Counted from the first letter of the stretch, positions 8,412-25,241 are shown. The stretch is DNA of 33,108 nt from Pseudobdellovibrionaceae bacterium (GCA_002686065.1 NYZX01000056.1:1-33108); one strand, 5' to 3'. Notes: generated by a model not told the origin, from the sequence alone. Numbers and translations: made by a program.

Positions 8412-10366
8412 ATCGGCTCCTTCGGCAAGACGACTTCAAATGTTGTCCCCTGACCTTCGGAGCTGTCAAATCGCAGCTTCCCACCATAGCGCTCGACAAT
8501 CTCGCGACTCATACTTAGGCCAAGTCCGGTTCCACGTCCTCGCTCTTTGGTTGTAAAAAAAGGTAAGAAAATCTGATCACGAATCTTTTTCGGAATACCA
8601 GGCCCCGTATCACGAACCTTAATTGTCACATTTCCATCCTGTTCTTTCGTCGAGATCTGAATCTGCCCAGGATCGTCCATCGCCTGACAGGAGTTATTAA
8701 TCAAATTAAACAACACCTGCTGCAGCAGACTTTTTTGTGCACGAACGTGCAACTGGCTGTCTTCAAGGTTGATATCGACTTTGTGATTATGAAGTGAAAC
8801 CTTCAACAACGATAAGGTCGATTCGATGAGATCATTCACATCAATTAGCTCATCTTCCGGCTTACCACGATCATCTGCGAAGCTAAGAAGGTCGGTAATA
8901 ATACTTTGGCTGCGACTAGCGGCTATTTCCACTTCCTTCAGGTCCGAGTAAATTTCAGAATCTTCCGGCACTTCTGACATCAAAATCTGAGACAAGGAAC
9001 GAATCCCCGTTAATGGGTTATTTAGCTCATGAGCGATGTGACCAGCCAAATGCCCCAAAGCCGCCATTTTTTCATTTTGAATGGTCTGACCACGCAAATC
9101 TTCTTTATCCGTGACGTCCAAATAGTGATTCACCAAAGTCGAGACCTCAGATGGCGGCCCCAAATAGACCGGGTAACTTGTCATTTCAAAGGCCTTCCCA
9201 GCACGCCGGACCTTCATCGTCTGAGGCTGGCCAGCCTGAATGACTTCGTGAATTCGACAGCCTTCACAAGGAGACGTCCTATTGGCAAAGGACTCATAGC
9301 ACTTGGTCCCGGCCTGCTGTGGCTCCGAAAAATGAACATTGGATCTAAGAAGCTCATAGTCAGATGTCACAATACAAAGTGGGTCTTCGACACTGTCAAA
9401 GGTCCGCTCCCACAGATAAGAGGCCTCGTGCATTTCACTTTCAAGCAACAAGCGCTCGATGGTCATACTTAGAGGCTGAAGCCAGGGGCTGATTTCTTCT
9501 AAAAACGTGTCAGTCTGACCAACCTCCAACTGGTGTTCCACGAACAAAGTCACAGGTTGTGCCCCTTGCGAGGCTAATCGAAGTGGCAAAGTTAAAACAT
9601 GAACAAAAGGCCTCTGAAACTGATTCGCTAAAAACCGTTGATCCTCTGGATCGTTTTGCTTAATCCGAATCGACGTCGGGCCCTGGCCCTCCTCAAGACG
9701 GATTCTTTGAACCCGCCCTTTCATTAAACCAATCAACTCGTAGCGACTTCTAAAAGGAAACCCTAAAATAAACTGAGAAATCGAAAATTTTGTCTGCCGA
9801 ATGTCTTTATTTAATCGTGCAACAACATCTTCTAAAGTCACCGCTTCACCGAGCGATGTTGTTAGCTGCACAAGACGGCGAAGGCCTTTTAAGCTATCTT
9901 GCACTTCCTTTTTCGCCGAGTCTTCTCGCTCGGTTTCCCGGTCAACCAAGTCTTCCAACCCCTGGGTGAGCTCTTCGAGTTGGTGATAATTAGAAGTCAG
10001 TGTTTGCTTCAGAAGCTGTTGTTTCTTCATCCGATTCAGATCTTTAGAAAAGTGCTCTGCGATCGACAATTTCTTGAACTCTTTTTCGCTAATGACTTTG
10101 GAAAAGGGCATCCAATCGAGACTAGCCAAACAAGGGTCATCTTCCCCCCCATAGACCAAAATAGACATCTGACTTGTCTGCAATAGGCTTTGCACTTTAT
10201 TTTCCCCAGGAAAGTCCTTTGAGGAAAATAAGCACAGATCAATCCCCTTCTTTGGATCTTCGATTTCGGGGTCCACAAGAATAAAAAGATCATCCTGATT
10301 CAGATGCTTGGCTTCAAGGTGCGGAGATACCCAGACTAAAGCCGGGCTGGATGCGTCCGATGACAT
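8408..10366 (-). CDS. cytoplasmic sensor histidine kinase (large N-terminal sensory region, PAS-like segment, HisKA + HATPase_c)
   Basis: 652 aa with no TM segment seen. H-box HIAHELNNPLTGI, N-box LFNLINNSCQAM, G-boxes RDTGPGIP and GTGLGLS. A Cys cluster (CYESFANRTSPCEGC) lies just upstream of the DHp domain. Confidence 0.85.
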   Translation of the reverse strand: MSSDASSPALVWVSPHLEAKHLNQDDLFILVDPEIEDPKKGIDLCLFSSKDFPGENKVQSLLQTSQMSILVYGGEDDPCLASLDWMPFSKVISEKEFKKLSIAEHFSKDLNRMKKQQLLKQTLTSNYHQLEELTQGLEDLVDRETEREDSAKKEVQDSLKGLRRLVQLTTSLGEAVTLEDVVARLNKDIRQTKFSISQFILGFPFRSRYELIGLMKGRVQRIRLEEGQGPTSIRIKQNDPEDQRFLANQFQRPFVHVLTLPLRLASQGAQPVTLFVEHQLEVGQTDTFLEEISPWLQPLSMTIERLLLESEMHEASYLWERTFDSVEDPLCIVTSDYELLRSNVHFSEPQQAGTKCYESFANRTSPCEGCRIHEVIQAGQPQTMKVRRAGKAFEMTSYPVYLGPPSEVSTLVNHYLDVTDKEDLRGQTIQNEKMAALGHLAGHIAHELNNPLTGIRSLSQILMSEVPEDSEIYSDLKEVEIAASRSQSIITDLLSFADDRGKPEDELIDVNDLIESTLSLLKVSLHNHKVDINLEDSQLHVRAQKSLLQQVLFNLINNSCQAMDDPGQIQISTKEQDGNVTIKVRDTGPGIPKKIRDQIFLPFFTTKERGRGTGLGLSMSREIVERYGGKLRFDSSEGQGTTFEVVLPKEPI

Positions 10367-11408: not shown

Positions 11409-11423
11409 GCAACCAAGGTGCCA
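11409..11423 (-). promoter_or_regulatory. sigma-54 (-24/-12) promoter candidate
   Basis: Minus strand reads CC-TGGCAC-CTTGG-TTGC-A, an exact TGGCAC-N5-TTGC(A/T). The -12 element is about 33 nt upstream of ATG 11376. Confidence 0.55.
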
Positions 11424-11515: not shown

Positions 11516-12118
11516 TCAGTTTGATACAGAGGCCATATCCTGCAAAACATCGACCCAGCGACGGAAGCTTTCACTTAAATCGTATTCAACAATATCGGCG
11601 ATCAAAACTGTATCATTGCCCTCGACCGCGACAACAAGCTCGGTCAAAACATCCTGAAGTCGACGCTCTTCTTCTCGCCATCGGGTTTCAAGTTCTGGCT
11701 TTAATGACAAAAATTCTTTGGACCGCTGCAATCCCTCGGTGAGCCACTGCACCACCTCAAACAACTGCCCCAAATCTAAATCGTCAGACCCGGGCTCCAT
11801 CCCTCGAAAGCCCTCAGCCAAAGCTTCGCAATTTCGCTGACACTCAACCAAGCCGTCAACAAGCAGCTTTAAGGTGTCTTTTGTCATCTCTTCCAACGAG
11901 CGAAAGACGAATCGAAACTGTCGCACATCCGCTATTCCCGCACCTGCATATTGCTTTTCGGCCTCATCATCAAGCCGAACACCATCAACCTCGATCTCGC
12001 AAAGGTAAAGCCCCTTATGTTGATGCTGTTCCTCGATCACATGAATCAGCTCGGACAAAGTTGTCTGCTGCTGATAGTTCGCCTGAACGGTATTTGAATC
12101 CAACTCGATAACTGTCAT
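11516..12118 (-). CDS. hypothetical acidic protein (200 aa), last gene of the flagellar-linked GT9 module
   Basis: Start moved to ATG 12118 (MTVIELDS...), which forms an ATGA overlap with the stop of the upstream GT9 gene. No motif recognised. Confidence 0.6.
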   Translation of the reverse strand: MTVIELDSNTVQANYQQQTTLSELIHVIEEQHQHKGLYLCEIEVDGVRLDDEAEKQYAGAGIADVRQFRFVFRSLEEMTKDTLKLLVDGLVECQRNCEALAEGFRGMEPGSDDLDLGQLFEVVQWLTEGLQRSKEFLSLKPELETRWREEERRLQDVLTELVVAVEGNDTVLIADIVEYDLSESFRRWVDVLQDMASVSN

Positions 12119-13566
12119 AAAAAGTAGTCCTTTGATTTGTTTTCTTCGGCCAGCAATGCACGACACACCAACGCAAGTTCGTCATATGTTTTCGCCGTCT
12201 GGTCGAAAACCGTTTGAAGCTCGGCAGGTGATATTCGAACCTTTTGTGTTAAAAACCAGTTCACAAGCGGTCGAACCTCGGGAACGAATCGAGCCACCTG
12301 GTGAAATATTTCATCGGCCTCTAAAAGAATATCCAAGGCCGTCCCCTTTTGAGGGTTCTGGCGAACCTGTTCAAGTTGTTGTTGCGCCAGTTCGCAGGCC
12401 TCAAAAATGCGTTGAATGCCTAATGCGATCTCACTTCTTTTAGAAGCGGGAAACGGAGCTCCAACATACAAGGCCTGAGTCAACTGCCATGCATAGTCAT
12501 CCAACCGAAATCCCCTTAATTGAAAGCGAGACAACCCATTATCCTCACGAAGGATCACTGGCTGTATAGCTGGCTGCCCCTCCAGCATCGTCGTCGCCTG
12601 ATCGATGATTTGCTGAACATCAACTTCGTCGGGAGAGCGATACCATAGCGCTCGGCTTCCTGATGCCAAAGGGCCTGTCTCCCAAAAATTTACAGATGGA
12701 AACGTCACATTAAGTGTCTTGGTTGAAACTAAGGATGCCATATGCACCATGACACTATCTGGGGCAATCAGTAGCGCTGAGTTTTTAATCAAACTAAAAT
12801 GGTCTTCTAAAGGAATTTCCCCGACGAGATTGATCAAATGGGGCGACGAAACCGCACCCTGTACGGACGAACCGACCGTTTCGTCCTCGGGACCCCCGAC
12901 CAATACCACCGGATTTGATCGTCGATCCGTCAGACCTTGAACAAGGGAGATCAGACTTTGTTGAGTCATGGATTTCGACGCTTCGCTGGCTGCCACGTGC
13001 ACAACAATCGCATCAGGATAGTCCAACGATTGGCTTGGCATTACTTCTGACTGAAAGTCTTCAGGGATCAGCTCAACCCCACAGACTCCTGCAAACATAT
13101 CGATGACATGAACACGGTTGTAACTGTTTGCCCCGACTTGAGAATAAAAGTACGAAGACGTATCGTCAGGCACATCGAAAAAACCATCTGAGTGCCTTGT
13201 ATAACCAACCACTCTTTGCGGATCTCCACCCGACACCCGTCGAGTGACATAACTTGATAGCGGAGAGAAGCTAAGATTTATGACAAGATCATAGGACTGG
13301 GCGACCAGCTCGGAAAGACAGTTTTCGATCAACCTTAAACTATCATCAAGGCCATCATCGCTATCCCAGATCGGTTTTAGAATTTGCTTTACCGGAAATA
13401 CCCGAGCCGTACTAATAGCATCCAGCCCTCGGGTGGCCGCTTCAAAGCGATCGCGCACCAGTAGGTCGATCGTTGCCTCTGGGTAAGAGCGACGTAGGGA
13501 CTTTAATGCTGGCCAGGTTTGGTAGATATCACCGAACCGTGCGAGTTGCAGGACCAGAATCTTCAT
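12115..13566 (-). CDS. glycosyltransferase family 9 (heptosyltransferase-like) with ~140-aa helical C-terminal extension
   Basis: 483 aa. GT9 N-terminus MKILVLQLARFGDIYQTWPALKSLRRSYPEATIDLLV, and donor-site region LLIAPDSVMVHMASLV. Confidence 0.8.
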   Translation of the reverse strand: MKILVLQLARFGDIYQTWPALKSLRRSYPEATIDLLVRDRFEAATRGLDAISTARVFPVKQILKPIWDSDDGLDDSLRLIENCLSELVAQSYDLVINLSFSPLSSYVTRRVSGGDPQRVVGYTRHSDGFFDVPDDTSSYFYSQVGANSYNRVHVIDMFAGVCGVELIPEDFQSEVMPSQSLDYPDAIVVHVAASEASKSMTQQSLISLVQGLTDRRSNPVVLVGGPEDETVGSSVQGAVSSPHLINLVGEIPLEDHFSLIKNSALLIAPDSVMVHMASLVSTKTLNVTFPSVNFWETGPLASGSRALWYRSPDEVDVQQIIDQATTMLEGQPAIQPVILREDNGLSRFQLRGFRLDDYAWQLTQALYVGAPFPASKRSEIALGIQRIFEACELAQQQLEQVRQNPQKGTALDILLEADEIFHQVARFVPEVRPLVNWFLTQKVRISPAELQTVFDQTAKTYDELALVCRALLAEENKSKDYFL

Positions 13567-13711
13567 GGTTTAGCTGCTCCTTGATGATGGACTCTAAAAT
13601 CTTCATGTTTTCTGTGGCTTTGTTAAAACCTTTTGAGGCCTGCATTTTCGATGAGGCTTCATCAAGTTTTTTTATCAAAGCCTCTAGTTGTCTGGCTTTT
13701 TCATCGTTCAT
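13529..13711 (-). CDS. 60-aa helical micro-protein (tentative)
   Basis: ATGA overlap with the stop of the upstream GT9 gene. Amphipathic helical sequence (EKARQLEALIKKLDEASSKMQASKGFNKATENMKILESIIKEQL). Its last 38 nt overlap the next GT9 start. Confidence 0.4.
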   Translation of the reverse strand: MNDEKARQLEALIKKLDEASSKMQASKGFNKATENMKILESIIKEQLNHEDSGPATRTVR

Positions 13712-15381
13712 CTTGTTCTCCGTTCACTGAGCTCTTTCGCATAACGAATAAGTCGGTGTTGAATTTCACTTTTTTGAAAGCTGTGATCTAAAGCGACATC
13801 CAACTGCCGAAGGTAATCAAAGTTGTCGACCAACTTTGAGGTCGACCAGTCAATTTCCATACCTCGACGGACACGATCAAAAAGGTTCGGATCTTCATCG
13901 ACATGAATTTCCGTAACTAGTTTTTGATGCATCTTTTCTAAACACTCCGCTGGGTTGTGGTGTTTTCTTAGTGTTCGACTGATGTGCACCATCGATTCGA
14001 TCGTGGTTTGTTTTTTAAAAGAGTCTGCTTCAATGGACTTAAGCCACTTCGAAAACCGATCACTATCCATCGCCCCCATCAAAAGGTAGACTTCCTCGAT
14101 TAAGTGCAAAGCCACGTCTGTTCCCATAGGCTTATGCGACCCGTCTAGCAGACGTTGAGTCGACAACATCGTTAGAAGTCGGCTTGCCTCGAAAGACCAG
14201 TCCGACGGACTGCAACTGATCTTTCGCCAAAAACCAAAAGGCGTCGTCTTAACTAGACTCATCGCACACTCGTCTTTTGTTTGCTCGGCTAACACATGAA
14301 GTCCGTCCAATGTTCCCCGGTAAAAGTGGCTTAACGCAAGTCCGGCTAGGTCTCCAGGTATTGCTTGGCGACATTCAAAAGTTTTGCGTTCGCATCCATC
14401 GGCACGATGCGCACAAGGGAAGCATTCAATTTTAGGTTCAATAATCAAGCTATGATCTTTGTAAACCCCTGTTTTTCGAACATCAGCACTACCTAAAGCA
14501 AGCTCTACAATCTTACAGCTGGTCCCTGCCGCAAGGTGCTTTATACTTGTATCGACGGTCAGTAGACACTTTGACTGATTCAAAAGCGCAGTGACGCCTC
14601 CTAAAGACAACAAAGCCATCTGCAAGTGAAGCCCTCGAGCCTGAAGCTGACCGTAAAGGCTTTGAATTTGATCAGCCTCAAAGGGCGCTCCAATCAGAGT
14701 GATCGAGCTATCTTGATTTAAACTTTGAAACGCAAGCAAGGCGTCCCCAAGGCTTGTGACGTCCCATTCTTTACGGGAATCAAAACTTGTTGCCTGAACA
14801 ACCAAGCCTTTTGTTTTTAGCCCCAATGAACGTACTTCGTCTTGAAACTGAGGCTCTTCGTCAAATCGACATCGAAGATCTTCAGGCTGTATTTGAAGAC
14901 CTAAGCCGCCAGCTAGAGCGTCGTTATAGTGAAACACATTAGCCCCGCCAAGGGTGACATGATCTTCTAGGTATCGAAACCAAGGCGAAAAAAAATCGGA
15001 ACGGTCTTTGTTATCAATTGTTAATCCATAGACCTCTTCAGCCTCAATCAAGTCAGTCAGGTAGCCGCTTAACTTGTTTTGAGTCATATTAACAACGTAG
15101 TCAAAATGACGCTGGTTTAGGTCTTCGATCTGCCAGCTGAGCTGATTGACAGCGGACAACAGTGAAGCCGAACGATCTAAACAGGCATTTTGATATTGCT
15201 TTCGATCGAAGATATGAATTTCAGAAAACCACTGCTTTAAAATGGGCTCTGCGACTTTCGCATCTGAATTAATCAAAATGTGAAGTTCAACATCGGGATG
15301 TTCACGCTTCATCGCTTGGTAAAGCGGCCGGTGCATCAACAGATCGCCTAGTCTTAGTAAATCAACGACAAGCATTTTCAT
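13708..15381 (-). CDS. glycosyltransferase family 9 (heptosyltransferase-like) with ~200-aa C-terminal extension
   Basis: 557 aa. MKMLVVDLLRLGDLLMHRPLYQAMKREHPDVELHILI, LLTVDTSIKHLAAG, and the CxxC-x6-C-x6-C cluster (CFPCAHRADGCERKTFEC) that I recall as common in GT9 enzymes. Confidence 0.8.
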   Translation of the reverse strand: MKMLVVDLLRLGDLLMHRPLYQAMKREHPDVELHILINSDAKVAEPILKQWFSEIHIFDRKQYQNACLDRSASLLSAVNQLSWQIEDLNQRHFDYVVNMTQNKLSGYLTDLIEAEEVYGLTIDNKDRSDFFSPWFRYLEDHVTLGGANVFHYNDALAGGLGLQIQPEDLRCRFDEEPQFQDEVRSLGLKTKGLVVQATSFDSRKEWDVTSLGDALLAFQSLNQDSSITLIGAPFEADQIQSLYGQLQARGLHLQMALLSLGGVTALLNQSKCLLTVDTSIKHLAAGTSCKIVELALGSADVRKTGVYKDHSLIIEPKIECFPCAHRADGCERKTFECRQAIPGDLAGLALSHFYRGTLDGLHVLAEQTKDECAMSLVKTTPFGFWRKISCSPSDWSFEASRLLTMLSTQRLLDGSHKPMGTDVALHLIEEVYLLMGAMDSDRFSKWLKSIEADSFKKQTTIESMVHISRTLRKHHNPAECLEKMHQKLVTEIHVDEDPNLFDRVRRGMEIDWSTSKLVDNFDYLRQLDVALDHSFQKSEIQHRLIRYAKELSERRTR

Positions 15382-15971
15382 TTAACCAGCTCCCTCAATA
15401 TCTTTACAAACGGACGTAGCCCTGAACCCTTTGGAACCGCTTCGCTAAGTTCTTTGATCGAAGCCAGCTGACAGGTTTCAACTGTGGCATGGGACCAACT
15501 TCGCTTTTCAACAAGAAACCGAAAGGCCTGCTGACTTCGAAAGTTAAGGTGATCTTGTAAGTCATATGCCCACTTAGGGAAGATGTGACGAACCGAAGGG
15601 ATCTGAACCAGTTGATAGTTCACCCCAAGTAGTCTCGCCTGCAAATGCTGCAAAGCCCCCTTGTCTTCTTGCGATAGGACTTTGAGCTCTGCGTGCCTCA
15701 ACTCCATACCGTGAGTCTTTTTGATCCATTCACATATCGGCCCATGACCATCGATAGCGATGATATGTAAATCTGGAAACCGCTTTACGGCTTCGACCAA
15801 CTGGTAACCTGAAGCTAGACCAATAAATAAAAGAACATCTGTCGAGGGGTGTACATCTAAGCCGTTAACAAAGCTGACAGCTTCTTTTCTGGGATCAATT
15901 CGCGATGACAACAGGCGATTGTTCCACTTTAAAATTGGGTCTCCCGACCTGGCTTGCTCAACCTTTAGCAT
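15378..15971 (-). CDS. 197-aa protein resembling only the N-terminal region of motility-accessory-factor (Maf/DUF115) proteins
   Basis: GDPILKWNNRLLSSRIDPRKEAVSFV then VLLFIGLASGYQLVEAVKRFPDLHIIAIDGH recalls the Maf N-terminal layout (LhS..dP..EA ... GlGlGY). Overlaps both neighbours (ATGA downstream, 7 nt upstream). Assignment is from memory only. Confidence 0.4.
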   Translation of the reverse strand: MLKVEQARSGDPILKWNNRLLSSRIDPRKEAVSFVNGLDVHPSTDVLLFIGLASGYQLVEAVKRFPDLHIIAIDGHGPICEWIKKTHGMELRHAELKVLSQEDKGALQHLQARLLGVNYQLVQIPSVRHIFPKWAYDLQDHLNFRSQQAFRFLVEKRSWSHATVETCQLASIKELSEAVPKGSGLRPFVKILRELVK

Positions 15972-16948
15972 TCAGATGATTCTCCCCATTCTTTTTGCAT
16001 TTGCTCTTCAACTTGGCGTAGCAATTCAAGGCTGAGTTCATCTGTAGGTTGGTTAAGCAAAAGACGTTCTAGTTCTGTCGCTGCATTTATATATTGTCCT
16101 GAATCAAAATAGACCTGGGCCAAAAGACGCCCCATGTCTGTATCATCCTGGTGCCAACTCATATAAGTCTCTAGACGACTAACAATACGAGCGGTCTTGT
16201 GATCTTGAAATGCCCACTGAATAGCTAGCTTTAATGCCGTCGGGTTGACCGAGTTCAAGTCCAGAGCACGCTCGATATTAGCCCATGAAAGCTCATGATC
16301 ACCAAACTGACGGTGAACCAAGGCCAAACCGATCCATGCCCGGTCGTTATGCGAATCTTGCCGACTCGCTTTTCGATACCAATGAAGGGCCTTATTCCAA
16401 AGTCCTTTTTGAACCTCAAGCGTTCCAAGGTTGACTAACAAAGCAACAGACGACGAATTAATCTGGTAGGCCAACTGATAATGAGCTTCAGCTTGATCGA
16501 CCTGCCCGGACTTAAGAAACAAATTTCCAAGCTCTTTGTGAATCGAAAAAAGATAGTCCGGATGGTCTTTAAATAGAGTTAGGCAGGACTGATAGGACTG
16601 AATAGCGTCCTTAACCTGGGCCAAGTCGGTCTGTGCATGAGCTAACTCGAACATGGCAATGGGATCGTTCCAGTTTTTAGCCACCTGCTGAAAGCAGGTC
16701 GCAGCCCCTTTCAGGTCGCCCGTTCCACGCAGGACTTGCCCCATCCAAAAAACAGCCATCGGGTGCTCGTCGTTGGTAGCCATATAATCGGCCAACAAAG
16801 ACTTTGCCGCATGGAATTCTTGCGCATCGATCAAGGTTTTAATGTTAATTAAAGAGGCTGAATCCGTTGCTCGAGTTGAACGAGATTGATTCGCTTGCTT
16901 TGAACTATCGACGACAGGACTTCTGTCCTGCTGAAACATTGGATCCAT
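15965..16948 (-). CDS. TPR-repeat protein
   Basis: 327 aa with at least six 34-residue repeats carrying the W/L-G-Y-A-F-A-P pattern (e.g. AVFWMGQVLRGTGDLKGAATCFQQ, AWIGLALVHRQFGDHELSWANIERAL). GGAGGG RBS. Confidence 0.8.
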   Translation of the reverse strand: MDPMFQQDRSPVVDSSKQANQSRSTRATDSASLINIKTLIDAQEFHAAKSLLADYMATNDEHPMAVFWMGQVLRGTGDLKGAATCFQQVAKNWNDPIAMFELAHAQTDLAQVKDAIQSYQSCLTLFKDHPDYLFSIHKELGNLFLKSGQVDQAEAHYQLAYQINSSSVALLVNLGTLEVQKGLWNKALHWYRKASRQDSHNDRAWIGLALVHRQFGDHELSWANIERALDLNSVNPTALKLAIQWAFQDHKTARIVSRLETYMSWHQDDTDMGRLLAQVYFDSGQYINAATELERLLLNQPTDELSLELLRQVEEQMQKEWGESSEC

Positions 16949-16978
16949 CCTAGACCCTCCTACTGCCTACCTACTACA

Positions 16979-16993
16979 GCAAAGGAGGTGCCA
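16979..16993 (-). promoter_or_regulatory. sigma-54 (-24/-12) promoter candidate for the TPR/GT9 operon
   Basis: Minus strand reads GG-TGGCAC-CTCCT-TTGC-TG, an exact TGGCAC-N5-TTGC. The -12 element is about 31 nt upstream of ATG 16948. Confidence 0.6.
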
Positions 16994-17188: not shown

Positions 17189-17614
17189 TCAGGCCTCTTC
17201 ATCCACGCGGCGATGCTCATCAAACTGACGATACCCACCGACAGCTTTGCGCCCCATTTTCACCTGGCGTAGCTCGACCAACATCTTAGACTTTTCTTTT
17301 TCGATAAACGAAAGAACCTCAAGATCTTGCGCTAAGATACGCTGAACGACGTCTTCTTTTTCACGTAAGGCCAAAGAAATAGCCTTCTTACCACTTTCTG
17401 TGATGTGGCCAGGCTCTAAAACTTCACGGTTAAAGTCTTCAATCCGAGCATCCACGTGACTAACAAGCTCAAGCAGCACTTCACGAGCGTTATAAAACTC
17501 GTCAAGGTGGTCAAAGCGGCCTTCACTTAAACTTGTGATTTGTTCTTCGTTTAAACGATAGAACTTAAACAGGTAATCATTCTTCTCATTTAGTAGATCT
17601 ACAATCCTTTGCAC
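17189..17614 (-). CDS. flagellar export chaperone-like protein (FlgN/FliT-type, tentative)
   Basis: 141 aa, all-helical. GTG start with AGGAGGG RBS, 16 nt after fliS, which is the usual position of fliT/flgN-like genes. Confidence 0.5.
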   Translation of the reverse strand: MQRIVDLLNEKNDYLFKFYRLNEEQITSLSEGRFDHLDEFYNAREVLLELVSHVDARIEDFNREVLEPGHITESGKKAISLALREKEDVVQRILAQDLEVLSFIEKEKSKMLVELRQVKMGRKAVGGYRQFDEHRRVDEEA

Positions 17615-17630
17615 CCTATCCCTCCTGGTT

Positions 17631-18029
17631 CTATCGTTGTGGCGAATCTTCGCGTTTTAGTTTTTCAATGGCTTCCTGCCATCCGGTATGCAATGTCTGC
17701 ATCACTCCAAGGGCATCTTCTAATGCCTTTTTATCAGAGTGAATGTTTCCTTTGGTCAGCTGGTCTGTGACAAACATATACAGCTGCTCAAGGCTTTTAG
17801 AGATCTCACCACCCACCTCGTGGTTTAAGGTGTTGTTAAGTTCTAAAACGATGTCATAAGCGCGCCCAATGTTGGTCCCTCGAGCGGCAATATCGTTTTT
17901 TTCAACGGCAACAATAGCCAGCTTGATAAACTTGATCGCCCCTTCGTAAAGCATAAGCAGTAGCTTTTCCCGACTTGCGCTTTGTATGGATGTTTTCTTG
18001 TACTTCTGATACGGATTACTCACCAGCAC
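17631..18029 (-). CDS. fliS: flagellin-specific chaperone FliS
   Basis: 132 aa. YQKYKKTSIQSASREKLLLMLYEGAIKFIKLA...LELNNTLNHEVGGEISKSLEQLYMFV is the classic FliS pattern. GTG start with AAGGAG RBS. Confidence 0.9.
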   Translation of the reverse strand: MLVSNPYQKYKKTSIQSASREKLLLMLYEGAIKFIKLAIVAVEKNDIAARGTNIGRAYDIVLELNNTLNHEVGGEISKSLEQLYMFVTDQLTKGNIHSDKKALEDALGVMQTLHTGWQEAIEKLKREDSPQR

Positions 18030-18103
18030 TCGCTCCTTGACAGCATTCGTTTACTTTTCGGATCTTTAACGTTTCATACTTAGTCATCAATTTCGTTTCC
18101 TAT

Positions 18104-19471
18104 CTAAAGTCCTGGGAAGGCACCGCCGCCTCCACCAAGCGCAGCGATTTGGCCACGCTGGTTGTTCAAACGCGCCATGGTTTCTTCAAGGTTGGCAAAC
18201 TTACGCTTTAAGCTAACTTCTTTGCGCTGTAGTTGGCGCTCTTTGTTGTCGATTCGACGATTGGCCTGATCAATTCTATTTCTAAGACCGCGTTTTCTGT
18301 TTGAAAGTGGACCAAAGGCTCCGTCTAGCAAAGTTCCAACACTTCGGCGAAGATTCGGTACGAATCCCGTACTAAACCCATCACCAGCAAAGAAGGCACT
18401 GACGGCATCAGGGTTCGACGCTACAATTTGGTTAAACTTATCCTGGCTAAATTCTAAGGTACCACTTCGCGTAAATTGGATACCCAACTGGCCTAATCGC
18501 TTGATTGGCCCAGCGATACCCACCTGAGTTGATTGAACCAAGTTTCTAAGACGGTTTTCAATGGTACGCAGTAAGCTATCACCACCTAAGGTTCGTGTCG
18601 TGTCCGAGTTCTCGTTCAGCGAGTTTTGCTCTTGAATGAAACTGAATACCTTGTTCATCGCATCGACAAAGTCTTTCACCCTGGTTTCGACCACTTCACG
18701 GTCTTCGCTGACCGAAATATTGACCTGTCGACCCGGGCTGGCCTGCCGAAGGTTTAAAGTAACCCCTGGAATCAAGTCTGTGACGGTCGTATCACCCACT
18801 TCAAAATCAATCCCATCAATTTTTACTTTTCCGTTCTTGGCTGCGATTTCTTTATCAAAGTAGACATCCTGATCACCATCAAGGAAGTACAAAGTCGGAT
18901 AGCTGACCTCGTTGTCTTCACCCAATGCGTCTCCAGATAACATCAACCGAAAGGGTGCATCCGGCTCGTCACGGTCATTGATAACCAAGGCACGGATCCC
19001 CAAGTTTGAATTGTTAATGGCACGAGCGACGCCATCAAGCGTGCTGTTCTCACCAGAGATGTAAATTTCCTTATCGCCATCTTTGGTTTCGAATTTGATA
19101 TAACCGGTACCTATCTCGGTGCGGTCACGATCAGGAAACCCGTTGGTGACTGCGGCAGCTTTTTGAGGAAGGTCGACGACTTCAATGTTATAGCTACCTG
19201 TTTTAGCCGCCTGTGGATCAACTGCACCCGTGACGATCGAGGTGTCACCACTATCTAGTTTTAAATCGTTAAACCCGCGCACTGAGGCCAGTGATGAGAT
19301 AGATTCTTGAATCGAGCGCACGCGTCCTTCGAGATCTGTCACCAGATCCATCTTGGCTTGTGTATTACCCAGCTTCCGCTGTTCACTGCGAATAGGTTCT
19401 CGCTCAGCATCTAACAGCTGCTCGACAATATTCGGCGGTAATCCTGAGGCACGTCCTATGCCAAAATTCAT
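18104..19471 (-). CDS. fliD: flagellar filament cap protein FliD
   Basis: 455 aa. N-terminal GIGRASGLPPNIVEQLLDAEREPI and C-terminal coiled coil (RIDNKERQLQRKEVSLKRKFANLEETMARLNNQ) are typical of FliD. Confidence 0.9.
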   Translation of the reverse strand: MNFGIGRASGLPPNIVEQLLDAEREPIRSEQRKLGNTQAKMDLVTDLEGRVRSIQESISSLASVRGFNDLKLDSGDTSIVTGAVDPQAAKTGSYNIEVVDLPQKAAAVTNGFPDRDRTEIGTGYIKFETKDGDKEIYISGENSTLDGVARAINNSNLGIRALVINDRDEPDAPFRLMLSGDALGEDNEVSYPTLYFLDGDQDVYFDKEIAAKNGKVKIDGIDFEVGDTTVTDLIPGVTLNLRQASPGRQVNISVSEDREVVETRVKDFVDAMNKVFSFIQEQNSLNENSDTTRTLGGDSLLRTIENRLRNLVQSTQVGIAGPIKRLGQLGIQFTRSGTLEFSQDKFNQIVASNPDAVSAFFAGDGFSTGFVPNLRRSVGTLLDGAFGPLSNRKRGLRNRIDQANRRIDNKERQLQRKEVSLKRKFANLEETMARLNNQRGQIAALGGGGGAFPGL

Positions 19472-19726: not shown

Positions 19727-20908
19727 CTAGTCGCAGTTCTGCGGAAGAGCAAAAGGCTTTGACCTGTTTGTCGTTGGCCAGTTTTCGAAGCCTTTTACCG
19801 AAAGAAGAATAAACTGTGACCTTTGGTTCTGGTCAAAATTGTTGTCGCTGACAAGAACCAAGCTTCCTGAACCATCTGGAAAGCGTGGGCCGTAGGCGAT
19901 TCCCTCCAGACTGTCCAATGATTGAAAACCGGGTGTCAGATCAGACAAAATAGTCGAAAGGTCTAAGAACAAAGATTTCTTCAAGAAGTGAACCTTAGAC
20001 TTATCTACATCACTCAACGAAAACTCGCTTTCGATGTTCGTCGCATCCTTTGTGTCTACTTGGAATAGCCTATGAATGTTGACGTAACTTCGAGCTCCAT
20101 AAAACAGATGCGATGTTCGCTCCAGGGCAATAAGCCGATCATCATCAATGGCAAGTAGGTCTGATAGCCCGACGCTTGCAGATCGAACTCGCATTCGATC
20201 TGATTGGACCATTTCTGGATAAACACTGACTTTATAGGCAAACTCTCCGACTAACTTCGGAGGAGTCACCGATATATCATATTTAAGAAGCCTCACATTC
20301 GCCGAGTTTTCGAAGTCCGACCGCTCACCGTCTTGGTAAAGTGGGTACTCGTTCGCTGTGTAGAGGTACTTTCCTGAAGGGGTCACAGTCAGAGATTCAA
20401 AGCCTCCGTTTTGACGGACACCAGAAACATCCGGACGGGACTTAAACTTTTCGGGAACGGAAAACTCACGAACCAGCTTATAGCTAGGGTCAAACTCCAT
20501 GATACTCGGCTCACGGTGTAGTCGTCCCGCATCGGGGTGTAAATTTCCCTCAGAAGAAACAAACAACCGAGCCCCAGCTGTGGCTATTCCTTCGGCATCC
20601 AATAACCACCGAGCAAAAGGTCTGTCTGAAGAATCCTTTAGCAAAATCGTATCTTCCACCTCAACCTGAAGCCCTTCACAGCTCAAGCCAAATCCAAAAC
20701 GATGAATGTGTGGGTGATATCTGTCATCAGAGACGGCAAACAACGACTGATCTGAAGCCATGAACGCCCCTGACAACCCACCAACTCTAAGCCCACTGTG
20801 AAATGTGTCTGTCGACAAATTCGCATCACCCACAACTCGAATATCAGGAACCCCTGCAAACAGCGACCCACACACGACCAACGAAAAAACCAGAGTAAAG
20901 ACTTTCAC
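19727..20908 (-). CDS. secreted esterase-like-activity-of-phytase family protein
   Basis: 393 aa, GTG start, signal peptide MKVFTLVFSLVVCGSLFA. GGLSGAF...AVSDDR, FESLTVTPSGKYLYTANEYPL and LEGIAYGP...LVLVSDNNF recall the phytase-like beta-propeller family. Confidence 0.65.
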   Translation of the reverse strand: MKVFTLVFSLVVCGSLFAGVPDIRVVGDANLSTDTFHSGLRVGGLSGAFMASDQSLFAVSDDRYHPHIHRFGFGLSCEGLQVEVEDTILLKDSSDRPFARWLLDAEGIATAGARLFVSSEGNLHPDAGRLHREPSIMEFDPSYKLVREFSVPEKFKSRPDVSGVRQNGGFESLTVTPSGKYLYTANEYPLYQDGERSDFENSANVRLLKYDISVTPPKLVGEFAYKVSVYPEMVQSDRMRVRSASVGLSDLLAIDDDRLIALERTSHLFYGARSYVNIHRLFQVDTKDATNIESEFSLSDVDKSKVHFLKKSLFLDLSTILSDLTPGFQSLDSLEGIAYGPRFPDGSGSLVLVSDNNFDQNQRSQFILLSVKGFENWPTTNRSKPFALPQNCD

Positions 20909-22574: not shown

Positions 22575-25241
22575 GTGAGATACTTTTGTTTTGTATCGGC
22601 GATCTCAGAGACTTTCCGTAAACACGCTCGCATACAGGCGAAGGCGATACTATTTGTTCTTTCAACACTGTTTGCCTTAAGCGCTCAAGCAAGGTTAATC
22701 AATCCAGTCATCATTGAACCTTCGGATATTCTTTTCCAAAACTTTCCAGAGTACATCTATCGGAACGGCCAGCTGGTTGAATCCACAAAGCCTTTTAGCT
22801 TCACTTATATAGACCGTCGAGGGGCTAAAAGATCTGTTAAAGGATATTTGCGCCCAGGAACAGAGCTTCTGCTTAAAACCCTTGTTGAGAAGAAAGCCGC
22901 AAATCCCAACTTCAACTTCCACTTCTTGAGCTCATGGCCCCAGGCGAAACTATTTGGGTTTCTTACCGCCTTAAATTCAGATCAGCTACCCATCATCGAC
23001 ACCATCGGTTCCGCATTCGGAAGCGAAGTCATCCAGGCCTATAACAGCTTAAAAGGCAATCAAAACGGCAACCTAAAAGACATTGGCCTTTTCCACCCGA
23101 GTCGTACACATTACCAATCCCTATGGACGTCAATTAAAGGAATCGCAAGTAAAGGCCTATCCCTGAACAAAGACGATCTTATGAAGCGAATGGGAAAAGG
23201 ACCTGACCAGGGCATAAACACAGCGATAATGATCGACAGTCACGCCAAGAACGTCGTCAAACATCAGCGAGATAACGTGGTCGTCCCTGCTCCAAGCCCA
23301 TGGAGAAACGAAAAGTTCAAAGCTAAGTTTGCAAACGCTGTGAAGCGCCCATTAACAACCTTAGGAAACACTCTGCTAAACCACGAAGTTATTGTGGACA
23401 ACACGAACAGGTATCGTCAGCTACGAATTTTAGTAGACCTTTTATCCGATGCCGAAAAAACATCTGTTCCAACCGATGTCAGACGCTGGAGCGAACTGCT
23501 TAGATACGCGAAAACCCTTTCTTTGGATATTTCCCACTATTCGTTTTTGATTGCGGATGTCTTCAAGGAAGACTCTGAAGATACAGAGGTCCTTATCCTG
23601 GGTCGCGATACAGATTTATTCTACGAGGGCGTAAAAACCCTGATCGAACCTCTTGGAATCAAAAGCCATGTGTCCTACATCAATATGAGCCGCCTTATTG
23701 CCAGCAAGCCAGCTAGCGATATCATAAAGGCTCTTGAGTACGTCGGTGTTGACATTGAAGGAGTTCGAGCTGGCCGAAAGAAACTTCGTGTCATCGACTC
23801 GAATCACACAGGAAGTATCGCCCGAAATATCATTCGTGCCGTCGCCGGAGAACAAGGCGAAAGCCCTCAGTGGCGAGATATCGCATCACGAATGTCCGCC
23901 TTTTACTTCAATGTCGTTCGAACCAACCGGATTCCCCTTGAAAGCTGGCCAGACTTCAATACCTATATGGTGAATGGTGGTTTTTTCGAAGACCCTGTTC
24001 ACCAGGAACGCGCCGGTGGGTACGCATTAATGCGGGGAACAACAGCTTACCTCGATACCTATCGACCGAAGCCCATCCAACGTACTGCTGAAATCCGGGA
24101 AGATGGCTCGCTGATTGAGCTTCCGGCGCACCCATCAGAGCTACGAGCTCGTCATGTCTTAGCAGAGCATATTAAAGCCCACTTTTCGTCTCCTGATATT
24201 CGGTCTGTATTAAAAAACCGTCTACAATTCGTTCGTAACCAGCCCGGTCATTATCCCGCTTCCTGGCCCGCAAACGAACCTTACTTCGGAGAAGCACCAC
24301 TAAGCAGAATCATTGACCCAGCTAATCTGGCTGAGGCCATGAACCCCAAGAAAGCCGACAACAAACTTGGGATGTCCTTTTCAAAGCATATCCGTAGTCA
24401 ACGCCGCCATAACATGCTGCCCTTCACCTTCACCCACTTGCACCCGGACTCATTGACTAGGTGGCATATGTACCGCCCCGAATGGGCCGCAAACGAGACA
24501 GAGATTGACCTTGGCCAAAACTTTTTTAAACCTAATTTCGACAGCTCATCTTCGAACTCAATAAACTTAGAACCTTTGAACACGGCCAGTTTACACGAAC
24601 GTCGAATTGCTGCCGTTCAAGCTCTATCGCGTAGTGCCCGCGGCGAACATCTGGGTGGCAAAACACGTGTGTACGGCGAAGAACTTGCCGAGACCACAAG
24701 ACGGTCCAATAACCAAGTTACAGACAACCTGTTGTTGGCTAAAGACCTAAAGTTCGACGACTACAACCAGCTTGGTGAGTTTATCAAACACCAGATAATC
24801 GATATCTACGTCAAAGAAGTCCGACGAGGTTATGAAAGCGGAGACATTTGGAGAGTCCATAACTATCAAAACGATCAACAACTTGTAAGTGGCGAGTTTT
24901 CGGACGCCCAACAGGCTATCGACCTTGAGCAGGACTGGATCTGGTTTTCTGAATGGCTGTTTATGTATCTAAAACATGACTACGACCCGATTCGCCTTGG
25001 CGCAAAAGTCCATTTCTACTTTGCAAACTACCTTCACCCCTCGATTGATGGCGCGGGGAAGTCAGCTCGCGATCTAGTCGACTTCGTTTTTCTTCGAAAA
25101 GGGTATATGCCACCGGACTGGTCAAGAGTTACAAAAGACGAATATTGGCAAAAAACACAATCTTATGATGACCTACTTGAGTTGATTACAGCGCTATCCG
25201 TAAGTGGAGACACCTACCAGTGCAAATCCATTTTTCAGTAG
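22575..25241 (+). CDS. exported 888-aa protein with C-terminal Fic-like domain (degenerate motif HPSIDGAGKSAR)
   Basis: GTG start with AAGGGG RBS. Signal peptide AILFVLSTLFALSAQA|RL. C-terminal HFYFANYLHPSIDGAGKSARDLVDFVFLRKGYMPP (motif at 25035-25070) fits the Fic core HxFx(D/E)GNGRxxR in His, Asp, both Gly and the last Arg. Confidence 0.7.
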   Translation: MRYFCFVSAISETFRKHARIQAKAILFVLSTLFALSAQARLINPVIIEPSDILFQNFPEYIYRNGQLVESTKPFSFTYIDRRGAKRSVKGYLRPGTELLLKTLVEKKAANPNFNFHFLSSWPQAKLFGFLTALNSDQLPIIDTIGSAFGSEVIQAYNSLKGNQNGNLKDIGLFHPSRTHYQSLWTSIKGIASKGLSLNKDDLMKRMGKGPDQGINTAIMIDSHAKNVVKHQRDNVVVPAPSPWRNEKFKAKFANAVKRPLTTLGNTLLNHEVIVDNTNRYRQLRILVDLLSDAEKTSVPTDVRRWSELLRYAKTLSLDISHYSFLIADVFKEDSEDTEVLILGRDTDLFYEGVKTLIEPLGIKSHVSYINMSRLIASKPASDIIKALEYVGVDIEGVRAGRKKLRVIDSNHTGSIARNIIRAVAGEQGESPQWRDIASRMSAFYFNVVRTNRIPLESWPDFNTYMVNGGFFEDPVHQERAGGYALMRGTTAYLDTYRPKPIQRTAEIREDGSLIELPAHPSELRARHVLAEHIKAHFSSPDIRSVLKNRLQFVRNQPGHYPASWPANEPYFGEAPLSRIIDPANLAEAMNPKKADNKLGMSFSKHIRSQRRHNMLPFTFTHLHPDSLTRWHMYRPEWAANETEIDLGQNFFKPNFDSSSSNSINLEPLNTASLHERRIAAVQALSRSARGEHLGGKTRVYGEELAETTRRSNNQVTDNLLLAKDLKFDDYNQLGEFIKHQIIDIYVKEVRRGYESGDIWRVHNYQNDQQLVSGEFSDAQQAIDLEQDWIWFSEWLFMYLKHDYDPIRLGAKVHFYFANYLHPSIDGAGKSARDLVDFVFLRKGYMPPDWSRVTKDEYWQKTQSYDDLLELITALSVSGDTYQCKSIFQ

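What the first reader, a model, noticed from the sequence alone, without database searches (positions are those of the whole stretch)
11516..16993. Sigma-54-promoted, translationally coupled TPR / Maf-like / double-GT9 module directly downstream of fliD-fliS: candidate novel flagellin (or flagellar) glycosylation system
Six ORFs (327, 197, 557, 60, 483 and 200 aa) are chained by start/stop overlaps (7 nt, ATGA, ATGA, 38 nt, ATGA). They lie behind an exact TGGCAC-N5-TTGC match at 16979-16993, immediately after fliD-fliS-(FlgN/FliT-like). Both large proteins have clear GT9 (heptosyltransferase-type, GT-B fold) N-terminal and donor-site signatures. They are 130-200 aa longer than LPS heptosyltransferases such as WaaC/WaaF, with helical C-terminal extensions. 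No LPS-core or sugar-nucleotide genes are adjacent. Two precedents make a protein substrate plausible. GT9-like autotransporter heptosyltransferases (AAH/TibC) O-heptosylate proteins. Caulobacter FlmG couples a TPR flagellin-binding domain to a GT-B glycosyltransferase. Here the TPR unit is a separate polypeptide, and a fragment-like Maf N-terminal homologue is present without the usual Maf catalytic domain. A GT9-based flagellar glycosylation system has not, to my knowledge, been described.
Basis: partly seen in the sequence, partly recalled or inferred. Interest (0 to 1): 0.65.

Follow-up and report, generated by a model that had tools for sequence, protein, structure and literature searches.

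The report
Flagellum-linked double-GT9 glycosyltransferase operon
A six-gene, sigma-54-driven operon with two unusual heptosyltransferase-like enzymes sits right after the flagellar cap and chaperone genes in all Bdellovibrio-type predators sampled; it probably adds sugar to flagellar proteins, but nobody has tested that.

Summary

The module is the orthologue of B. bacteriovorus HD100 Bd0614-Bd0619, which is annotated but uncharacterised. It is conserved across Bdellovibrionales. FliS and the TPR gene lie upstream in 68 of 68 loci, and the second GT9 gene lies downstream in 70 of 70. A sigma-54 motif precedes the TPR gene in 71 of 74 loci.

The two large proteins are paralogous, divergent GT9 enzymes. 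GT9A keeps all four WaaC catalytic/donor residues and GT9B keeps most; both fail the LPS-heptosyltransferase equivalog cut-offs. HD100 has canonical heptosyltransferases and an ADP-heptose synthase elsewhere.

- The 197-aa protein has a methyltransferase-like Rossmann fold. Its resemblance to the Maf N-terminal domain is only a short motif.
- The 200-aa protein is DUF8042/TP0873_N, and it appears fused to the second GT9 in six related loci.
- The 60-aa ORF is a conserved microprotein.

The best reading is a multi-subunit cytoplasmic system that glycosylates flagellin or another flagellar protein (confidence about 0.5). Modification of sheath or LPS glycolipid is the main rival. No glycan has been shown, and GT9 genes in flagellar loci had already been predicted in enterobacterial flag-2 loci. 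I rate it a new variant of a known kind, of moderate interest.

The parts
16979..16993 (-). Sigma-54 (-24/-12) promoter TGGCAC-N5-TTGC of the module
   Evidence: Exact match; 2 in the window against 0.05 expected. TGG[CT]A[CT]-N5-TTGC is conserved in the same intergenic gap in 71/74 related loci. It accounts for 74 of the 75 such sites on the coding strand of 85 loci.
15965..16948 (-). 327-aa TPR protein (orthologue of HD100 Bd0614, annotated 'putative O-linked GlcNAc transferase'); proposed substrate-binding or scaffold subunit
   Evidence: TPR_2 1.5e-21 plus many other TPR models. No GT domain. Present upstream of GT9A in 68/68 loci. HD100 name.
15378..15971 (-). 197-aa Rossmann-like (class I methyltransferase-like) protein with a motif-level resemblance to the Maf N-terminal domain (orthologue of Bd0615)
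   Evidence: 25/49 family members hit PF20157 and 17/49 hit Methyltransf_25. The Maf_N match covers only about 35 aa. AF2 N-terminal 100 aa have pLDDT about 90; Foldseek top hits are SAM methyltransferases. The family has 368 clusters at E<=1e-10, and all 150 listed members are stand-alone proteins of 146-221 aa. Bd0615 was detected in a proteome, clustered with FliS.
13708..15381 (-). 557-aa GT9 glycosyltransferase A with a C-x2-C-x6-C-x6-C motif and a helical C-terminal extension of about 200 aa (orthologue of Bd0616)
   Evidence: PF01075 30.5 bits. Family profile against PDB: WaaC 1.2e-16, with D13, K192, E222 and D261 equivalents invariant. The Cys motif is nearly invariant. The extension matches only generic helical bundles. 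Family lengths are 393-593 aa.
13529..13711 (-). 60-aa conserved helical microprotein; it overlaps the GT9A stop by 4 nt and the GT9B start by 38 nt
   Evidence: An ORF in the same position in 50 loci, with a conserved L-x-E-L-I-K-E-Q-x-x-N-E-N-S...R motif. No significant Pfam hit.
12115..13566 (-). 483-aa GT9 glycosyltransferase B, paralogue of A, without the Cys motif and with its own C-terminal extension of about 160 aa (orthologue of Bd0618)
   Evidence: PF01075 28.3 bits. hhalign A against B gives E 1.9e-44 over the GT-B fold. Profile against PDB: 3TOV 3.3e-16, WaaF 1.2e-10. D13 invariant; the K and D-S donor-site motifs nearly invariant. Downstream of GT9A in 70/70 loci.
11516..12118 (-). 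200-aa DUF8042/TP0873_N protein: small alpha/beta N-domain plus a four-helix bundle (orthologue of Bd0619)
   Evidence: Precomputed PF27299 + PF26154 on the window's own protein P0118. AF2 pLDDT 86. Foldseek returns only generic four-helix bundles. In six related loci without a separate gene, the helical part appears fused to the GT9B C-terminus.
17189..19471 (-). Context: fliD (19471-18104), fliS (18029-17631) and a FliT/FlgN-like 141-aa gene (17614-17189), immediately upstream and in the same orientation
   Evidence: Pfam FliD_C 1.8e-48 and FliS 2e-38. FliT hit in 36/39 family members. Same order in all loci with enough flank.

Best explanation
The module is a sigma-54-dependent operon, conserved across Bdellovibrionales, that encodes a cytoplasmic multi-subunit glycosylation machine dedicated to the flagellum.

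**Proposed mechanism**
1. The TPR protein recruits the acceptor. It may be helped by the small Rossmann-like protein, the DUF8042 protein and the 60-aa microprotein. The most likely acceptor is newly made flagellin, before FliS binding and export. Another exported flagellar protein is possible.
2. The two paralogous GT9 enzymes act in sequence. They transfer sugar from an ADP-activated donor, most plausibly ADP-heptose made by the cell's LPS pathway.

**Shown here**
- The gene content, the coupled gene arrangement and the conserved sigma-54 site.
- The invariant flagellar neighbourhood.
- GT9 membership with intact catalytic/donor residues, and the paralogy of the two enzymes.
- Canonical LPS heptosyltransferase genes elsewhere in a reference genome.
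- An apparent GT9B-DUF8042 fusion in six related loci.

**Inferred**
- That the acceptor is a protein, and that it is flagellin.
- The identity of the sugar.
- The adaptor roles of the four non-GT proteins.
- Formation of a complex.
For: 1. **Context.** FliS and the TPR gene lie upstream of GT9A in 68/68 loci, and GT9B lies downstream in 70/70.
2. **Separate regulation.** A sigma-54 site is conserved in 71/74 loci, and 74 of 75 strict sites in 85 loci lie at this one position. HD100 RNA-seq shows RPKM dropping from 53 (Bd0613) to 6 (Bd0614).
3. **Active-looking enzymes.** Both pass the Pfam GT9 threshold. The WaaC residues D13, K192, E222 and D261 are conserved in GT9A, and GT9B keeps the D13, K and D-S equivalents.
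4. **Not the housekeeping LPS enzymes.**
   - They score 27-56 bits against NCBIfam heptosyltransferase I-III (TIGR) equivalogs whose cut-offs are 135-185.
   - They are each other's closest relatives: 138 and 113 bits, against 36-65 for WaaC/WaaF.
   - HD100 has Bd1503/Bd1504 heptosyltransferases and the Bd0720 ADP-heptose synthase elsewhere. Bd1504 and Bd0720 are growth-phase-induced; the module's GT9 genes are not.
   - The acceptor-side N-domains are not basic. Median pI is 7.0 and 5.4, against 9.3-9.8 for WaaC/WaaF/WaaU.
5. **Partners typical of protein-targeting glycosyltransferases.**
   - A stand-alone TPR protein. The FlmG TPR domain binds flagellins (PMC7591256).
   - A protein sharing a motif with the Maf N-terminal domain.
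   - A DUF8042/TP0873_N protein. A distant relative of it also sits beside flaG and a flagellin gene.
6. **Likely physical coupling.** There are tight gene overlaps in most loci, and a tail matching the DUF8042 family profile on the GT9B C-terminus in six related loci.
7. **Protein-level support.** Bd0615 and Bd0613 were detected and fall in the same temporal cluster as FliS.
8. **Independent precedent.** GT9 genes occur in the flagellin-modification region of enterobacterial flag-2 loci (PMC6993521).
Against: - No glycan on any Bdellovibrio flagellin is reported in the papers I could search. Purified flagellins of 274-282 aa run at 29-31 kDa, so any modification must be small.
- The synteny comes from one order, so it may be inherited rather than independently selected.
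- The nearest solved relatives are LPS heptosyltransferases. The protein heptosyltransferase TibC is not detected even at E<=1.
- There are no sugar-nucleotide genes in the locus.
- HD100 transcript levels are low in both sampled phases.
- The Maf link is only motif-level.
- Structure searches for the 200-aa protein gave nothing specific.
Confidence: 0.5

Rival explanations
1. The two GT9 enzymes modify a glycolipid (LPS inner core or a related lipid) destined for the flagellar sheath, which in Bdellovibrio is an outer-membrane extension. The operon is co-located with the filament genes so that sheath-specific LPS is made while the filament grows.
For: - The closest solved relatives are WaaC, WaaF and 3TOV.
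- HD100 annotators named Bd0616/Bd0618 'putative lipopolysaccharide (biosynthesis)'.
- Bdellovibrio flagella are sheathed, and sheath LPS was reported to differ from cell LPS in fatty-acid content (review PMC7175336).
- All characterised GT9 enzymes other than the autotransporter heptosyltransferases act on LPS (established knowledge of the family).
Against: - Canonical heptosyltransferases exist elsewhere in HD100, and one of them (Bd1504) is strongly growth-phase-induced.
- The module enzymes miss the LPS equivalog cut-offs by a wide margin.
- Their acceptor-side domains are neutral to acidic, not basic.
- TPR, Rossmann-like and DUF8042 partners are not features of LPS core operons.
- The reported sheath difference concerns fatty acids, not sugars.
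- No lipid A or Kdo genes are nearby.
Confidence: 0.2
2. The module glycosylates some other acceptor (a non-flagellar protein, a cytoplasmic or periplasmic glycan, or a small molecule). Its position after fliS would then be inherited synteny in one order, without functional meaning.
For: - All 80 related loci belong to one order, so conservation of gene order is not independent evidence.
- The module has its own promoter, separate from fliD-fliS.
- The genes further downstream (histidine kinase, rsmD, coaD, aminotransferase) are equally syntenic yet are not flagellar genes.
Against: - The order is deeply sampled, with only 25-35% identity between GT9A orthologues, yet the adjacency never breaks. 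The single 4.5-kb insertion (L065) keeps the promoter with the TPR gene.
- Bd0615 co-clusters with FliS in the proteome.
- A distant DUF8042 relative is also next to flaG and a flagellin gene.
Confidence: 0.15
3. The 197-aa protein is an active SAM-dependent methyltransferase. The module would then both glycosylate and methylate its target (a methylated sugar, or flagellin lysine methylation as by FliB), and the protein would not be a Maf-type adaptor.
For: - Motif I (GxGxG) and an acidic residue at the end of beta-2 are conserved.
- 17/49 members hit Methyltransf_25.
- The Foldseek top hits are SAM methyltransferases, including the protein-lysine methyltransferases PKMT1/2 (E about 3e-4).
Against: - Only about 100 residues fold confidently, with three Rossmann strands. 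The rest has pLDDT below 60, and no beta-6/beta-7 hairpin or catalytic motif IV is evident.
- All sequence hits are below the curated cut-offs.
Confidence: 0.25

Closest known systems
LPS heptosyltransferases WaaC/WaaF (CAZy GT9, GT-B fold)
   Same: Same Pfam family. WaaC residues D13, K192, E222 and D261 are conserved in GT9A, and GT9B keeps the D13, K and D-S equivalents. These are the best solved-structure relatives.
   Different: - 135-238 aa longer, with helical C-terminal extensions.
- Far below the NCBIfam equivalog cut-offs.
- Neutral to acidic acceptor domains.
- Encoded in a flagellar locus with TPR, Rossmann-like and DUF8042 partners, while canonical LPS heptosyltransferase genes lie elsewhere in HD100.
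Autotransporter heptosyltransferases TibC/AAH (BAHT)
   Same: Heptosyltransferase-type enzymes that O-glycosylate proteins in the cytoplasm using ADP-heptose from the LPS pathway (PMC4358343 abstract). This is the precedent for a protein acceptor.
   Different: There is no detectable sequence relationship at E<=1 in profile searches of PDB sequences. There is no autotransporter substrate gene nearby. Whether the GT9A Cys motif corresponds to the TibC iron finger was not tested.
Caulobacter FlmG (TPR + GT-B flagellin O-glycosyltransferase)
   Same: The logic is the same: a TPR module binds flagellin and a GT-B-type catalytic module does the transfer, in the cytoplasm (PMC7591256).
   Different: Here TPR and GT are separate polypeptides, there are two GT9 enzymes plus three further small proteins, and the donor is probably ADP-heptose. 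FlmG transfers pseudaminic acid.
Maf (motility-associated factor) flagellin glycosyltransferases
   Same: Located in a flagellar locus. Half of the 197-aa protein's family hit the Maf N-terminal domain model.
   Different: No MAF_flag10/DUF115 catalytic domain is present anywhere in the module. The N-domain match is a motif of about 35 residues shared with methyltransferases. No Maf structure is among the top 50 fold matches.
GT9-1 to GT9-5 genes in variable region 1 of Enterobacterales flag-2 loci (De Maayer et al. 2020)
   Same: GT9-family genes embedded in a flagellar locus and predicted, from genomics alone, to glycosylate flagellin (PMC6993521).
   Different: A different phylum and a lateral-flagellum system. 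That paper reports no double-GT9, TPR or DUF8042 architecture. Sequence relatedness to the present enzymes was not tested.

Membership tests
CAZy GT9 / Pfam PF01075 Glyco_transf_9 | Score above the Pfam gathering threshold | tested here: met
   30.5 bits (557 aa) and 28.3 bits (483 aa) against a cut-off of 22.
CAZy GT9 / Pfam PF01075 Glyco_transf_9 | Catalytic base and ADP-heptose-binding residues (WaaC D13, K192, E222, D261) | tested here: met
   In GT9A the aligned equivalents D13, K204, E235 and D277-T278 are invariant. In GT9B, D13 is invariant and K198 and D270-S271 are nearly invariant.
LPS heptosyltransferase I/II/III (NCBIfam equivalogs) | Score above the curated equivalog cut-off | tested here: not met
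   27-56 bits against the TIGR heptosyltransferase I-III equivalogs, whose cut-offs are 135-185. The NF-series models (RfaQ, RfaF, RfaC; cut-offs 437-569) also fail.
LPS heptosyltransferase I/II/III (NCBIfam equivalogs) | Transfers heptose to Kdo2-lipid A or the inner core | not testable with these tools
   Indirect only: non-basic acceptor domains, and canonical enzymes present elsewhere in HD100.
Autotransporter heptosyltransferases (TibC/AAH) | Detectable sequence homology to TibC/AAH | tested here: not met
   Profile searches of all PDB sequences at E<=1 return WaaC, WaaF and 3TOV but no TibC.
Autotransporter heptosyltransferases (TibC/AAH) | Iron-finger Cys cluster and dodecameric ring | not tested
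   GT9A has a nearly invariant C-x2-C-x6-C-x6-C motif. No structural comparison with TibC was made. GT9B lacks the motif.
Maf flagellin glycosyltransferases | MAF_flag10 (DUF115, PF01973) catalytic domain | tested here: not met
   No hit in any of the six proteins or in the 49 members of the 197-aa family.
Maf flagellin glycosyltransferases | Maf_flag10_N (PF20157) N-terminal domain | tested here: inconclusive
   The window protein has no hit at E<=0.1. 25/49 family members hit it (best 2.9e-6), and one of those examined passes the 23.5-bit cut-off. The match covers only profile positions about 108-147 of 228. Fold search favours methyltransferases.
FlmG-type flagellin O-glycosyltransferase | TPR flagellin-binding domain fused to a GT-B domain in one polypeptide | tested here: not met
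   The TPR protein (327 aa) has no GT domain, and the GT9 proteins have no TPR.
Flagellin glycosylation island (generic) | Glycosyltransferase genes embedded among flagellin, fliD and fliS genes | tested here: met
   68/68 loci.
Flagellin glycosylation island (generic) | Demonstrated glycan on flagellin | not testable with these tools
   No report was found. SDS-PAGE gives 29-31 kDa for flagellins of 274-282 aa, which excludes only large glycans.
Sigma-54-dependent promoter | GG/GC elements with consensus TGGCAC-N5-TTGC at the proper distance upstream of the gene, conserved among relatives | tested here: met
   rpoN is present in HD100 (Bd0843). The activator protein and the transcription start were not identified.
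DUF8042 / TP0873_N (Pfam PF26154, PF27299) | Pfam hit to both models | tested here: met
   The precomputed domains on the window's own 200-aa protein (P0118) list both. The local Pfam copy gave no hit to either model.

The most novel reading that the evidence does not exclude
The operon encodes a third mechanistic class of flagellin O-glycosylation system, alongside Maf-type and TPR-fused FlmG/GT2-type enzymes. It would be a multi-subunit machine in which two duplicated GT9 enzymes use LPS-pathway ADP-heptose to build a short heptose-containing glycan on flagellin. Targeting would come from a free TPR protein, a Rossmann adaptor, a DUF8042 protein and a microprotein, all under a dedicated sigma-54 switch. 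This would be the first experimentally tractable case of GT9-dependent flagellar glycosylation, and it would assign a function to DUF8042/TP0873_N.
Probability: 0.3. Interest if true: 0.7.

Novelty: new variant of a known kind. Interest (0 to 1): 0.5.

Why it matters
Flagellin glycosylation is known to depend on Maf, FlmG, or GT2/GT4-type enzymes. A GT9 (ADP-heptose) route has only been guessed at from enterobacterial flag-2 genomics.

This module is invariant across an entire order of predatory bacteria. It includes the genetically tractable B. bacteriovorus HD100 (Bd0614-Bd0619), where deletion mutants and flagellin mass spectrometry are routine. The prediction is therefore directly testable.

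A positive result would:
- extend protein heptosylation beyond autotransporters;
- give first functions to DUF8042/TP0873_N and to a large family of orphan 200-aa proteins;
- reveal a sigma-54 sub-regulon of the sheathed flagellum.

A negative result with an LPS phenotype would instead point to sheath-specific LPS tailoring, which is also unexplained at present.

Tried and rejected
- **TibC/AAH kinship.** Single-sequence and profile searches of PDB sequences found only WaaC, WaaF and 3TOV. Rejected at sequence level.
- **Full Maf N-domain homology for the 197-aa protein.**
  - The profile search of PDB gave only marginal methyltransferase hits.
  - Foldseek gave methyltransferases.
  - An exhaustive HMM search of 1.84 billion representatives listed only stand-alone proteins of about 200 aa in its top 150, with no long Maf-like proteins. 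The most distant listed member that could be named was still Bdellovibrionota.
- **Fold assignment for the 200-aa protein.** The model is good (pLDDT 86), but Foldseek returned only generic four-helix bundles at E>=0.03.
- **Homology among the helical parts.** I compared the two GT9 C-terminal extensions, the 200-aa protein and the FliT-like protein with hhalign. All probabilities were below 15%. The 80% signal came from the fused tails in six related loci.
- **Adjacent CTP_transf-like gene as an ADP-heptose synthase.** Rejected: it is CoaD (177.6 bits, cut-off 103.3), next to RsmD.
- **RNA evidence for the transcription start and operon.** Only metatranscriptome contigs with flat depth were available, and they were uninformative.
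- **Context of distant DUF8042 relatives.** One is beside flaG and a flagellin gene. The other has no flagellar context, and its DUF8042 hit is weak.
- **Literature.** Nothing on TP0873/DUF8042, nothing on Bdellovibrio flagellin glycosylation, and nothing useful on heptose in its LPS.
- **A loose GG-N10-GC scan** was uninformative, as expected.

Full report
**1.

On the minus strand the window carries six ORFs:
- 16948-15965, 327 aa
- 15971-15378, 197 aa
- 15381-13708, 557 aa
- 13711-13529, 60 aa
- 13566-12115, 483 aa
- 12118-11516, 200 aa from the ATG. The mechanical ORF reaches a GTG at 12166.

Their overlaps are 7, 4, 4, 38 and 4 nt. TGGCACCTCCTTTGC lies at 16979-16993, 30 nt before the first ATG, with a GGAGG between them. 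The window has two exact TGGCAC-N5-TTGC matches against 0.05 expected by chance. Both are on the coding strand, just upstream of a start codon.

Upstream lie fliD, fliS and a 141-aa FliT/FlgN-like gene. A 277-aa flagellin gene lies at 31334-30501.

**2. Origin, and how widespread the module is**

A word-indexed search with the 557-aa protein found only eight relatives. Their contigs showed the same gene order. A scan of one genome per species found 103 relatives. The 80 loci kept are all Bdellovibrionales, including B. bacteriovorus.

I mapped the window's proteins onto these loci and called ORFs. The gene order is nearly invariant:

flagellin(s) - FlaG - FliD - FliS - FliT-like - gap of about 40-250 nt - TPR - ~200 aa - GT9A - ~60 aa - GT9B - ~200-230 aa - histidine kinase - receiver - RsmD - CoaD - aminotransferase - DUF2802

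(FlaG is taken from the precomputed gene calls; it was not among the mapped queries.)

- FliS and the TPR gene precede GT9A in 68 of 68 loci with enough flank. GT9B follows in 70 of 70.
- Most gene junctions inside the module overlap or abut.
- I found no paper that studies them.

**3. The promoter is real**

TGG[CT]A[CT]-N5-TTGC occurs between the FliT-like and TPR genes in 71 of 74 loci. On the coding strand of all 85 loci there are 75 such sites, and 74 of them are at this position.

The module is therefore a separate sigma-54 unit, not a read-through of fliD-fliS. This fits the drop in HD100 RNA-seq from RPKM 53 (Bd0613) to 6 (Bd0614). HD100 encodes rpoN, Bd0843. I did not identify the activator or the transcription start. 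Metatranscriptome contigs were uninformative.

**4. The two large proteins**

- Both pass the Pfam GT9 threshold.
- They are paralogues: hhalign gives E 1.9e-44 over the GT-B fold.
- They are closer to each other (138 and 113 bits) than to E. coli WaaC or WaaF (36-65 bits).
- Family profiles find WaaC (1.2e-16), 3TOV and WaaF among solved structures, but not TibC even at E<=1.
- The WaaC residues D13, K192, E222 and D261 align with invariant residues of GT9A. GT9B keeps the D13, K and D-S equivalents. Both therefore look catalytically competent, with an ADP-sugar site.
- Both fall far below the NCBIfam cut-offs for LPS heptosyltransferases I-III.
- GT9A has a nearly invariant C-x2-C-x6-C-x6-C motif and a helical extension whose length varies. 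The family spans 393-593 aa.
- GT9B has a different extension. The two extensions are not detectably related to each other or to the other helical proteins of the locus.

**5. Are these the cell's LPS enzymes? Probably not**

- HD100 is annotated with a heptosyltransferase pair elsewhere (Bd1503, Bd1504) and an ADP-heptose synthase (Bd0720). Bd1504 and Bd0720 are strongly growth-phase-induced.
- The module genes are not induced in that way.
- An ADP-heptose donor is therefore plausibly available without any sugar genes in the locus. The neighbouring CTP_transf-like gene is CoaD.
- The acceptor-side N-domains of WaaC, WaaF and WaaU are basic (pI 9.3-9.8). Those of GT9A and GT9B have median pI 7.0 and 5.4. 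This is soft evidence against an anionic lipid A-Kdo acceptor.

**6. The small proteins**

*The 197-aa protein.*
- It has no Pfam hit of its own.
- In a 49-member family alignment, 25 members hit Maf_flag10_N and 17 hit Methyltransf_25.
- The Maf match is confined to about 35 residues around the GxGxG loop and beta-2.
- The AlphaFold model is confident for residues 1-100.
- Its best fold matches are class I methyltransferases, with no Maf entry among the top 50.
- An exhaustive HMM search found 368 clusters at E<=1e-10. All 150 listed are stand-alone proteins of about 200 aa, and the ones that could be named are Bdellovibrionota.
- I call it a Rossmann-like protein with motif-level resemblance to the Maf N-domain. 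It could be an adaptor or a small methyltransferase.

*The 200-aa protein.*
- Precomputed Pfam domains on the window's own protein list TP0873_N plus DUF8042.
- The model (pLDDT 86) is a small alpha/beta domain followed by a four-helix bundle. No specific structural relative was found.
- One distant relative lies beside flaG and a flagellin gene. Another, with only a weak DUF8042 hit, has no flagellar neighbours.
- In six related loci that lack a separate gene, GT9B is 540-590 aa long and its tail carries the family's conserved helix motifs. The scores are modest (E 1e-6 to 1e-4) but consistent, and I read this as a gene fusion. It argues for physical association with GT9B.

*The 60-aa ORF.* It is conserved at the protein level in 50 loci. 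It is probably a real microprotein.

*Protein evidence in HD100.* Bd0615 and Bd0613 were detected by proteomics, in the same temporal cluster as FliS and the DUF2802 protein.

**7. Interpretation**

The best-supported reading is a flagellum-dedicated cytoplasmic glycosylation machine.
- TPR-mediated recruitment of flagellin has a precedent in FlmG (PMC7591256).
- Protein heptosylation by heptosyltransferase-type enzymes has a precedent in TibC/AAH (PMC4358343).
- GT9 genes were already noted in the flagellin-modification region of enterobacterial flag-2 loci (PMC6993521).

Against it:
- No glycan has been reported.
- B. bacteriovorus flagellins of 274-282 aa run at 29-31 kDa, so any glycan is small.
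- The synteny is from a single order.
- The nearest relatives act on LPS.

The main rival is tailoring of sheath LPS, since the flagellum is sheathed and its LPS differs in fatty acids (PMC7175336).

My estimates are about 0.5 for flagellar-protein glycosylation, 0.2 for sheath/LPS glycolipid and 0.15 for an unrelated acceptor. Separately, there is a 0.25 chance that the 197-aa protein is an active methyltransferase.

**8. Novelty**

The genes are known and annotated, but uncharacterised. The combination is not described in anything I could search: a double GT9 with a free TPR protein, a Rossmann protein, a microprotein and a DUF8042 protein under a dedicated sigma-54 promoter. The general idea of a flagellin glycosylation island, even one with GT9 genes, is not new. 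I therefore rate it a new variant of a known kind, of moderate interest. It is directly testable in HD100.

Noticed in passing
window 11409-11423 (-) and ORF 11376-10429 (-): A second perfect sigma-54 site (CTGGCACCTTGGTTGCA) lies 33 nt upstream of a 315-aa ORF that has a hydrophobic N-terminus and no family hit. This gene is absent from all 85 related loci, where the histidine kinase follows the 200-aa gene directly. It looks like a lineage-specific insertion that brought or acquired its own sigma-54 promoter.
   Followed up: partly
L026, L027, L033, L039, L047, L062 (GT9B genes of 540-590 aa): These loci have no separate DUF8042 gene. The C-terminus of GT9B carries matches to the family's 'fRe.dl...F.el' and 'kDf..aD.lEYel' helix motifs, which looks like a gene fusion.
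   Followed up: yes
window 8408-10366 (-), 7700-8065 (-): A 652-aa histidine kinase follows the module in almost all related loci. A small ORF follows it (121 aa in the window); its counterparts in L001-L004 carry Response_reg, and it was matched in only some loci. They might sense or regulate something flagellar. No sigma-54 activator domain is present.
   Followed up: no
HD100 Bd0619 (orthologue of window 11516-12118): In published RNA-seq, Bd0619 has a higher RPKM than the genes upstream (25.6 in attack phase and 56.2 at 3 h of growth, against about 5-9) and is flagged growth-phase-specific. This hints at an internal promoter or a differently stable 3' end.
   Followed up: no
L065, between the FliT-like gene and the TPR gene: A 4.5-kb insertion separates fliS/fliT-like from the module in this one genome. 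The sigma-54 site stays with the TPR gene.
   Followed up: partly
window 22575-25241 (+), 25220-27964 (+), 27942-28727 (+): Three overlapping plus-strand ORFs of 888, 914 and 261 aa between the two flagellar gene groups have no NCBIfam hit at E<=1e-5. They were not scanned against Pfam.
   Followed up: no
window 4182-5258 (-): A 358-aa DUF2802 protein is conserved at the far end of the syntenic block. Its HD100 orthologue Bd0627 falls in the same proteome cluster as FliS, Bd0613 and Bd0615.
   Followed up: no
window 19727-20908 (-), 29199-30371 (-): A phytase-like esterase (393 aa) and a PhoD-like phosphatase (390 aa) are interleaved with the flagellin, fliD and fliS genes. Other loci carry different inserts at these positions, for example a sulfatase/phosphodiesterase or GSDH.
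   Followed up: no
L088 4157-5185 (+): A 342-aa TP0873_N + DUF8042 protein from an unidentified organism lies next to flaG, a flagellin gene and a DUF6311 gene. This is a second, independent flagellar context for the domain pair.
   Followed up: partly
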